The notes beneath the pieces are model-generated. The model was not told the DNA's origin. It made no database searches and saw only the letters and a program-made list of their open reading frames with translations. Position numbers and translations under genes: made by a program. This document shows positions 49,912-50,002 of a stretch of DNA of 64,000 nt, in pieces (the stretch's first letter is position 1; every line of letters begins with the position of its first letter). The stretch comes from Escherichia phage UB, in sequence record MH383160; one strand, 5' to 3'.

Positions 49912-50002
49912 CGAAAGAGGTGGGATTTGAACCCACGAAGCGTTATTTCTAACACTTGCTCGCTTAGTAGGCGAGTGCAATCAACCGCTCTGCCACCCTT
50001 CC
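49912..50002 (-). tRNA. type-II tRNA (long variable arm, Ser-like) with apparent anticodon ACU
   Basis: Aligns to bacterial tRNA-Ser: acceptor GGAAGGG, D-region GGCAGAGCGGUUGAUUGC, anticodon stem CUCGC/GCGAG with loop CUACUAA, long extra arm, T-arm GUGGGUUCAAAUCCCAC. Confidence 0.65.

What the first reader, a model, noticed from the sequence alone, without database searches (positions are those of the whole stretch)
49912..50002. Type-II (Ser-like) tRNA with an apparent ACU anticodon
The gene aligns well to bacterial tRNA-Ser architecture (long extra arm, GGCAGAGCGGUUGA D-region), but the anticodon loop reads CUACUAA, placing A at wobble position 34 (ACU) instead of the usual GCU. An unmodified or inosine-modified A34 would change decoding of AGN codons and could allow Ser/Arg ambiguity.
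Basis: seen in the sequence. Interest (0 to 1): 0.5.

Follow-up and report, generated by a model that had tools for sequence, protein, structure and literature searches.

The report
Phage serine tRNA with ACU anticodon
A jumbo E. coli phage carries an intact, promoter-equipped serine tRNA whose anticodon starts with A (ACU), a type cells almost never keep. It most likely reads only the phage's favourite serine codon AGU rather than blurring serine and arginine.

Summary
Window 49912-50002 (minus strand) is a class II tRNA with anticodon ACU, by ARAGORN and Rfam (49.9 bits, loop CUACUAA). It is not a sequencing error: the 92-nt gene is 100% identical in 17 Asteriusvirus records, and GenBank 121Q already labels it tRNA-Ser(act).

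It is not a recent G-to-A mutant. Ten distinct Ser(ACU) genes from viral and MAG contigs keep the cloverleaf, with compensatory changes in 21 of 26 pairs. On one fixed tRNA backbone pattern, IMG/VR holds 13 contigs with A34, 58 with G34 and 0 with C34 or U34. Only 3 hits occur in 185,579 bacterial species genomes.

The Ser/Arg-ambiguity idea is not supported. The loop has U36 where E. coli TadA requires G36, and no phage TadA was found; the one annotated in Sharanji is a dCMP deaminase. A published E. coli experiment with the identical loop found no inosine, with AGU read and AGC and AGA undetectable.

Window ORFs use AGU 22.5 per 1000 codons against AGC 3.9; an E. coli sample gives 7.7 and 12.1.

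Best reading: an AGU-specialist seryl-tRNA with unmodified A34, made from its own sigma-70-like promoter. The modification state and decoding in infected cells are inferred, not shown.

The parts
49912..50002 (-). tRNA-Ser(ACU), class II, G73 discriminator, no encoded CCA
   Evidence: ARAGORN; Rfam 49.9 bits; fold. It is 100% identical in 17 phage records and annotated tRNA-Ser(act) in KM507819.
49966..49968 (-). Anticodon A34-C35-U36 (AGT on the plus strand)
   Evidence: Read directly; register given by the Rfam alignment and ARAGORN.
50013..50041 (-). Sigma-70-like promoter, TGGACA-17 nt-TATAAT with an extended -10 TG; the -10 element ends 11 nt before the tRNA 5' end
   Evidence: Consensus scan, 11 of 12 matches. 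This is a pattern match only. The same kind of site precedes tRNA-Arg(UCU) and tRNA-Gly(UCC). The -35 flank is about 97% conserved in phage BF17, where a GCU gene follows it.
49829..49903 (-). tRNA-Met/Ile-like (CAU), starting 8 nt after the Ser gene and probably co-transcribed
   Evidence: ARAGORN; Rfam 68.4 bits; spacer CAAAUUUU.
49664..49738 (-). tRNA-Asn(GUU), third gene of the Ser-Met-Asn group
   Evidence: ARAGORN; Rfam 54.3 bits.
51998..52071 (-). tRNA-Arg(UCU), the cognate reader of AGA in the same codon box, which would compete against any AGA misreading
   Evidence: ARAGORN; Rfam 56.7 bits. Arg(UCU) lies directly beside Ser(ACU) in IMG/VR loci L011 and L016-L018.

Best explanation
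This is a functional phage-encoded seryl-tRNA whose A34 stays unmodified in E. coli. It decodes AGU by a Watson-Crick A:U pair and essentially nothing else. It is made early, from its own sigma-70-type promoter, as the first gene of a Ser-Met-Asn group. Its 3' trailer is trimmed and CCA is added enzymatically. SerRS charges it through the long variable arm and G73, independently of the anticodon. It then supplies decoding capacity for AGU, which the phage uses about three times more than the host and about six times more than AGC. The host's single tRNA-Ser(GCU) reads AGU only by G:U wobble.

Shown: gene integrity, the anticodon, conservation, covariation, codon usage, and the absence of a TadA-type loop and of a detectable phage TadA. 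Inferred: expression, serylation, unmodified A34 and AGU-only reading in infected cells.
For: - Intact tRNA with the ACU register.
- Identical in 17 phage genomes.
- Ten distinct Ser(ACU) genes from viral and MAG contigs keep the cloverleaf. Compensatory changes occur in 21 of 26 pairs, and G73 is present in 9 of 10.
- These genes are at most 76% identical to each other or to any GCU gene, so the ACU state is old or recurrent.
- On the same backbone pattern, IMG/VR holds A34 in 13 contigs, G34 in 58 and Y34 in 0.
- Window ORFs use AGT 22.5 and AGC 3.9 per 1000 codons. An E. coli K-12 sample uses 7.7 and 12.1.
- AGT ranks 11th of 61 codons by phage excess over host. The other phage tRNAs also match over-used codons: AAT, ACA, ATA, GGA and AGA.
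- A strong promoter-like site lies 11 nt upstream.
- The loop has U36, not the G36 that EcTadA needs (PMC10586758, PMC11472039).
- The same loop in an orthogonal tRNA in E. coli was not deaminated and read AGU only (PMC11066159).
- Over-expressed Ser-tRNA(ACU) improved E. coli growth and has low predicted mistranslation (bioRxiv 10.64898/2026.05.15.725136).
- Several relatives keep both ACU and GCU genes, namely ph0011, Turkey3, JP4, WPEC3 and EJP2. This fits distinct roles for the two.
Against: - There are no expression, aminoacylation or modification data for this tRNA.
- Many equally AT-rich phages use GCU. GC content does not separate ACU loci from GCU loci (p=0.93), so codon demand alone does not explain why A34 is preferred over G34.
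- The 2026 preprint reports A-to-I conversion of another split-box ANN tRNA (Phe-AAA) in E. coli, so host deamination of unusual substrates is not impossible.
- The promoter is only a consensus match. The region as a whole is not enriched: 29 sites against 24.7 expected.
- The acceptor stem has G2:U71 instead of the G2:C71 of E. coli serV. The effect on serylation is unknown.
Confidence: 0.65

Rival explanations
1. A34 is deaminated to inosine, by host TadA or by an unrecognised phage enzyme. The resulting tRNA-Ser(ICU) would read AGU, AGC and AGA, giving some Ser-for-Arg miscoding.
For: Six of the seven loop positions match the TadA substrate loop CUACGAA. The 2026 preprint found that a split-box Phe-tRNA(AAA) becomes I34 in E. 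coli. Orthogonal tRNA(AUG) is partly deaminated by EcTadA.
Against: G36 is reported to be strictly required (PMC10586758). EcTadA fails on tRNA-Leu(AAG) (PMC11472039). The identical loop with ACU gave no inosine and no AGC or AGA reading in E. coli. AGA is 9.1 per 1000 codons in the phage, so miscoding would be costly. The phage also encodes tRNA-Arg(UCU). No TadA homologue was found, and the annotated one is a dCMP deaminase.
Confidence: 0.12
2. A34 is an anti-defence adaptation. Changing the wobble base makes the phage's AGY-box serine tRNA invisible to a host anticodon nuclease, or other factor, that recognises tRNA-Ser(GCU). Serine decoding then survives host tRNA depletion.
For: Phage tRNAs with anticodon-loop changes that evade nucleases are an established concept (PMC10264068, PMC11555353). 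Ser(ACU) is nearly restricted to viral contigs. Codon demand alone does not explain A over G.
Against: No nuclease targeting tRNA-Ser(GCU) was found in the papers consulted. Many relatives carry an ordinary GCU gene behind the same promoter flank. An A34 tRNA would not restore AGC reading.
Confidence: 0.12
3. The gene is a tolerated, near-neutral variant or a decaying gene with no specific role.
For: G to A is a transition, one step from GCU. The engineered tRNA is harmless in E. coli. Some relatives lack it.
Against: It is 100% conserved across 17 genomes whose flanks have diverged. A diverged EJP2 copy keeps the identical anticodon arm, while its acceptor and T stems carry compensated changes. 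Ten lineages show covariation. It has its own promoter-like site. No C34 or U34 variants exist.
Confidence: 0.08

Closest known systems
E. coli tRNA-Ser(GCU), serV, and the Asteriusvirus tRNA-Ser(GCU) genes
   Same: Class II architecture, G73, a 3-bp D stem with C11:G24, the loop C32 U33 N C U A37 A38, and the same codon box. In BF17 the GCU gene sits behind the same ORF and promoter flank.
   Different: A34 replaces G34. The window gene has no encoded CCA, two G-U pairs in the acceptor stem and a longer variable arm. It is about 70% identical to the phage GCU gene.
E. coli tRNA-Arg(ACG), the natural bacterial A34 tRNA and TadA substrate
   Same: A34, and a loop that matches at six of seven positions (CUACUAA against CUACGAA). 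The anticodon arm is identical at 14 of 17 positions.
   Different: U36 replaces the required G36. The body is class II and the identity is Ser. The arm is equally similar (14 of 17) to serV. Other Ser(ACU) genes have unrelated anticodon stems, so the resemblance is not a family feature.
Engineered ANN tRNAs in E. coli: M. jannaschii tRNA(ACU), PMC11066159; Ser-tRNA(ACU), bioRxiv 10.64898/2026.05.15.725136
   Same: The same anticodon and the same loop sequence in the same host species. The engineered versions were active, not deaminated where that was tested, AGU-specific and not toxic.
   Different: Those are laboratory constructs. This one is a natural, conserved, virus-borne gene. The preprint does not mention phages.
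Natural unmodified A34 tRNAs in four-codon boxes, such as Mycoplasma tRNA-Thr(AGU) and Firmicute Leu(AAG)/Thr(AGU)
   Same: A genomically encoded A34 retained over evolutionary time in AT-rich genomes.
   Different: Those sit in family boxes, where misreading is synonymous. Ser(ACU) sits in a split box shared with Arg.
Codon-compensating tRNA sets of large lytic phages (T4, T5 and other jumbo phages)
   Same: Clustered tRNA genes matching codons that the phage over-uses relative to its host. Some lack encoded CCA. From my own knowledge, T4 tRNA-Pro and tRNA-Ser also lack it.
   Different: The use of an ANN anticodon in a split box.

Membership tests
Bacterial-type class II tRNA-Ser | Cloverleaf with a 7-nt anticodon loop, U33 and a purine at position 37 | tested here: met
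   Rfam RF00005 at 49.9 bits with full model coverage; ARAGORN.
Bacterial-type class II tRNA-Ser | Long variable arm (stem-loop) | tested here: met
   An 8-bp stem with a GAAA loop in the MFE and centroid folds. The arm is conserved with covariation across 10 genes.
Bacterial-type class II tRNA-Ser | G73 discriminator (Leu and Tyr class II tRNAs have A73) | tested here: met
   G at 49912 follows the acceptor strand CUCUUUC. G73 is present in 9 of 10 family members.
Bacterial-type class II tRNA-Ser | Acceptor and D-stem identity pairs of E. coli tRNA-Ser (G1:C72, G2:C71, C11:G24) | tested here: inconclusive
   G1:C72 and C11:G24 are present. Position 2:71 is G:U rather than G:C.
Bacterial-type class II tRNA-Ser | Charged with serine by SerRS | not testable with these tools
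   Needs an aminoacylation assay or charged-tRNA sequencing.
TadA (A34-to-I34) substrates | U33-A34-C35-G36 in a CUACGAA-type loop on a stem | tested here: not met
   The loop is CUACUAA, with U36. The requirement is taken from PMC10586758 and PMC11472039. The identical loop was not edited in E. coli.
TadA (A34-to-I34) substrates | A cognate deaminase encoded by the phage | tested here: not met
   tblastn with EcTadA gave no hit in the window and none in any Asteriusvirus record at E<=1e-3. Sharanji WNN14772.1 matches T4 dCMP deaminase 1vq2 at E=5.9e-35. It scores 30 bits against the TadA model, whose cut-off is 150.
Suppressor or recoding tRNA | Anticodon complementary to a stop codon, or a non-standard loop size | tested here: not met
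   The anticodon ACU pairs with the sense codon AGU, and the loop is a standard 7 nt.
Codon-compensating phage tRNA | The cognate codon is over-represented in the phage relative to the host | tested here: met
   AGT is 22.5-23.3 per 1000 in window ORFs and 7.7 in the E. coli sample. The AGT:AGC ratio is 5.8 against 0.63.
Nuclease-evading phage tRNA | A host nuclease cleaves the cognate host tRNA, and the phage copy carries a change at the recognition site | not tested
   No nuclease specific for tRNA-Ser(GCU) was found in the papers read. No defence-system data are available for these phages.

The most novel reading that the evidence does not exclude
Tailed phages maintain a virus-restricted class of split-box A34 tRNAs that cellular genomes purge. 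Ser(ACU) is seen here in at least 8 diverged viral lineages, and His(AUG) was also seen. These tRNAs work unmodified as strictly U-ending-codon decoders. That would give AT-rich phages a Watson-Crick reader for their preferred codon, and possibly immunity to wobble-base-directed host factors. They would be natural counter-examples to the 'prohibited ANN anticodon' rule.
Probability: 0.35. Interest if true: 0.65.

Novelty: new variant of a known kind. Interest (0 to 1): 0.45.

Why it matters
tRNAs with unmodified A at the wobble position are almost absent from cellular life, above all in split codon boxes. Why this is so remains an open question; see the 2026 preprint by Raval et al. This gene is a natural, conserved split-box ANN tRNA with its own promoter-like site, in a culturable E. 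coli phage. Diverged relatives occur in other viral contigs.

That makes the question directly testable. One can sequence the tRNA from infected cells, swap A34 for G34 in the phage, and look for Arg-to-Ser errors.

It also corrects two readings. The anticodon is not a sequencing error. The published 'tRNA adenosine deaminase' of these phages is a dCMP deaminase, so there is no evidence for a phage inosine system.

If the tRNA turns out to be an ordinary codon-supply tRNA, the practical value is modest: better annotation, and a natural AGU-specific decoder for codon-reassignment work.

Tried and rejected
- **Sequencing error or alternative register.** Rejected: 17 identical records, and Rfam and ARAGORN agree.
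- **Phage-encoded TadA acting on the tRNA.** The lead came from the Sharanji paper. Rejected: the protein is a T4-type dCMP deaminase, and tblastn with EcTadA finds nothing in the window or in any Asteriusvirus record.
- **Anticodon arm as a mimic of tRNA-Arg(ACG).** Rejected: the 14 of 17 identity equals the identity to serV, and other Ser(ACU) genes have unrelated stems.
- **ACU genes confined to the most AT-rich phages.** Not supported: median GC is 0.41 for ACU loci and 0.40 for GCU loci, p=0.93. No ACU locus exceeds 47% GC, however.
- **A single clade of ACU genes.** Unresolved: the neighbour-joining tree of ~90-nt sequences scatters them among GCU genes and is not reliable.
- **Literature on Ser(ACU) in phages.** Three searches found nothing specific. 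The only hit was a table entry for a chlorovirus.
- **A known nuclease targeting tRNA-Ser(GCU).** None was found in the papers read.
- **Wolf et al. 2002.** The paper (guessed id PMC126108) could not be retrieved.
- **Bacterial hits.** One of the three genome-contig hits (L078) is not called a tRNA by ARAGORN.

Full report
**What is there.** ARAGORN finds six tRNA genes on the minus strand of the window. One is tRNA-Ser with anticodon ACT at 49911-50002. Rfam's tRNA model matches 49912-50002 at 49.9 bits (gathering score 29, E=1.3e-8). Its alignment places CUACUAA in the 7-nt anticodon loop, so A34-C35-U36 is the standard register. Read directly, the RNA is:

GGAAGGG U GGCAGAGCGGUUGAUUGC A CUCGC CUACUAA GCGAG C AAGUGUUAGAAAUAACGCUU CGUGGGUUCAAAUCCCAC CUCUUUC G

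It has a 7-bp acceptor stem with two G-U pairs, a long 8-bp variable arm and discriminator G73. The MFE and centroid folds recover the acceptor, anticodon, variable and T stems. No CCA is encoded. The gene is followed by CAAAUUUU and then tRNA-Met.

**Origin, and whether it is an error.** The region matches Asteriusvirus jumbo coliphages such as slurp01, SP27 and 121Q at up to 99.6% identity. The 92-nt gene is 100% identical in 17 phage records from different laboratories and countries. A sequencing correction to GCU is excluded. At the level of annotation the gene is already public.

**Is it a recent point mutant of a GCU gene?** It is not.

- Phage EJP2 has a second, diverged Ser(ACU) gene. 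It shares the identical anticodon arm, but its acceptor, T and variable stems differ and the changes are compensated. EJP2 also carries ordinary Ser(GCU) and Ser(UGA) genes.
- Within Asteriusvirus, 17 records carry the window-type ACU gene and about 23 carry a GCU gene. Five genomes carry both: ph0011, Turkey3, JP4, WPEC3 and EJP2.
- In BF17 the GCU gene follows the same upstream ORF end and -35 region as the window's ACU gene. That flank is about 97% identical, while the two tRNA genes are only about 70% identical. The two genes are therefore exchangeable cassettes behind one promoter.

**Beyond this genus.** I scanned IMG/VR with a fixed class II backbone pattern, GGCAGAGNGGNNNANNGCANNNNNCT[N]CTAA.

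- With A34 the scan gave 13 contigs. ARAGORN calls all of them Ser(act). They lie inside tRNA clusters, often beside Arg(tct).
- With G34 it gave 58 contigs.
- With C34 or U34 it gave none.
- The same A34 pattern hit only 3 contigs among one genome for each of 185,579 bacterial and archaeal species. All three are MAG contigs. Two are called tRNAs, and one of those sits next to a phage-type ParB-methyltransferase gene.

Ten distinct Ser(ACU) sequences align to one cloverleaf. Compensatory double changes occur in 21 of 26 pairs, and G73 is present in 9 of 10. They are at most 76% identical to each other or to any GCU gene. The loop sequence was fixed by the search pattern, so its conservation is not evidence. 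The intact, covarying bodies and the 13:58:0 split are evidence. A34 is a maintained state that is almost restricted to viral DNA, whereas anticodons that would read the Arg codons AGA and AGG are excluded.

- A paper on Sharanji, whose Ser(ACU) gene is identical to the window's, lists a phage 'tRNA-specific adenosine deaminase' and a CCA enzyme.
- I located that deaminase (L007:3457-3936, minus strand). It matches T4 dCMP deaminase (PDB 1vq2) over its full length at E=5.9e-35. It scores only 30 bits against the NCBIfam TadA model, whose cut-off is 150. That annotation is wrong.
- tblastn with E. coli TadA finds nothing in the window and no Asteriusvirus record at E<=1e-3.
- The CCA enzyme looks genuine. 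It scores 274 bits against the head domain of E. coli Cca. It lies outside the window. It fits the fact that 4 of the 6 window tRNAs lack an encoded CCA.
- Host TadA is reported to require U33-A34-C35-G36, with base-specific contacts to G36 (PMC10586758). All E. coli editing sites lie in UACG/YUACGAA, and EcTadA does not edit tRNA-Leu(AAG) (PMC11472039). The window loop has U36.
- Most directly, Schmitt et al. expressed an M. jannaschii tRNA in E. coli whose loop equals that of tRNA-Arg2 except for the anticodon. With ACU, which gives the loop CUACUAA as here, cDNA sequencing showed no inosine. The tRNA read AGU (9.4%), with AGC and AGA below detection and AGG at 0.36% (PMC11066159).
- A 2026 preprint found that over-expressed E. 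coli Ser-tRNA(ACU) improved growth and has a low predicted mistranslation load. It also stresses that ANN tRNAs are nearly absent from prokaryotes, and it does not mention phages.
- The same preprint reports A-to-I conversion of Phe-tRNA(AAA) in E. coli. Deamination of unusual substrates is therefore not impossible, and the native Ser backbone has not been tested.

**Why have it?** In 124 window ORFs, AGT is 22.5 per 1000 codons and AGC is 3.9. In a 50-kb E. coli K-12 sample treated the same way, the values are 7.7 and 12.1. AGT ranks 11th of 61 codons by phage excess over host. The other window tRNAs also match codons that the phage over-uses: AAT, ACA, ATA (if the CAU tRNA is an Ile2 type), GGA and AGA.

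A promoter-like site lies at 50041-50013 on the minus strand: TGGACA, 17 nt, then TGATATAAT. It matches 11 of 12 consensus positions and has an extended -10. It ends 11 nt before the tRNA 5' end. Equivalent sites precede the Arg(UCU) and Gly(UCC) genes. These are consensus matches only.

**Best explanation (confidence about 0.65).** This is an expressed seryl-tRNA with unmodified A34 that reads AGU by Watson-Crick pairing. It supplements the host's single GCU tRNA, which reads AGU by wobble. The weak point is that codon demand does not explain why A is preferred to G. GC content does not separate ACU loci from GCU loci (p=0.93), although no ACU locus exceeds 47% GC.

**Rivals.**

- *Inosine formation with Ser/Arg ambiguity, about 0.12.* It is disfavoured by U36, by the orthogonal-tRNA experiment, by the cost at 9.1 per 1000 AGA codons, and by the lack of a phage TadA.
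- *Evasion of a host factor that recognises G34 of tRNA-Ser(GCU), about 0.12.* It is attractive because the gene is nearly restricted to viral DNA. However, no such nuclease turned up in the papers I read.
- *A neutral or decaying variant, about 0.08.* It is disfavoured by the conservation, the covariation and the promoter.

I also tested whether the anticodon arm mimics tRNA-Arg(ACG). It is identical at 14 of 17 positions, but it is equally similar to serV, and other Ser(ACU) genes have different stems. I rejected that idea.

**Comparison and novelty.** The gene passes the sequence-level tests for a class II tRNA-Ser. The exception is G2:U71 in place of G2:C71, and serylation itself cannot be tested here. 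It fails the defining loop test for a TadA substrate, and it is not a suppressor tRNA. It works like a codon-compensating phage tRNA.

The gene is already annotated in public records. In the literature I could reach, I found no discussion of it, and none of Ser(ACU) as a recurrent phage feature. I rate it a new variant of a known kind: a phage tRNA that uses a split-box ANN anticodon, which cells avoid.

Interest is moderate at 0.45. The mechanism is probably mundane. Even so, it is a natural, experimentally tractable counter-example to a rule whose cause is still debated.

Noticed in passing
L007:3457-3936 (Sharanji OR545507.1 302356-302835, minus strand); not in the window: [quoted passage not shown] It matches PDB 1vq2 at E=5.9e-35 and scores only 30 bits against the TadA model, whose cut-off is 150.
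   Followed up: yes
window 48129-48202, 49911-50002, 51998-52071, 53099-53171 (minus strand): Four of the six window tRNAs (Thr, Ser-ACU, Arg, Gly) lack an encoded CCA and are followed by A-rich sequence. Met and Asn encode CCA. Relatives encode a Cca head-domain protein (WNN14700.1, L006:9963-11075), which has no hit in the window.
   Followed up: partly
window 52081-52108 and 53184-53212 (minus strand): Strong sigma-70-like promoter matches lie directly upstream of tRNA-Arg(UCU) (TGGACA-16-TATAAT with an extended -10) and of tRNA-Gly(UCC). The architecture is the same as before the Ser(ACU) gene.
   Followed up: no
window 49775-49799 (plus strand): A terminator-like hairpin, CTACCTTTCGGGTAG followed by TTTTTT, lies on the plus strand between the minus-strand tRNA-Met and tRNA-Asn genes. 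It is antisense to the tRNA transcription unit.
   Followed up: no
window 49829-49903 (minus strand): The tRNA with a CAU anticodon is annotated tRNA-Met in most relatives but tRNA-Ile in phage ph0011. ATA is about 17-18 per 1000 codons in window ORFs and 2.8 in the E. coli sample. It may therefore be a lysidine-dependent Ile2 tRNA.
   Followed up: no
IMG/VR loci L039 and L071 (His-atg); L024, L026, L029, L031, L042, L048, L050, L051, L057, L065, L075, L076 (Thr-agt); L048 (Leu-aag): Other non-Arg A34 tRNAs occur in viral tRNA clusters that were fetched only as controls. Two are another split-box type, His(AUG). Twelve are Thr(AGU).
   Followed up: no
L008:8782-8873 and L019:7783-7874: One Ser(ACU)-like class II tRNA from IMG/VR has A73 instead of G73. 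Its amino-acid identity, Ser or Leu-like, is uncertain.
   Followed up: no
L083 (BF17 MW822008.1 297879-298768) against window 49820-50130: The upstream ORF end and -35 region are about 97% identical. Sequence homology breaks near the -10 element. BF17 then has a GCU Ser gene plus a roughly 150-nt spacer before tRNA-Met. This looks like a tRNA cassette exchange behind a shared promoter.
   Followed up: partly
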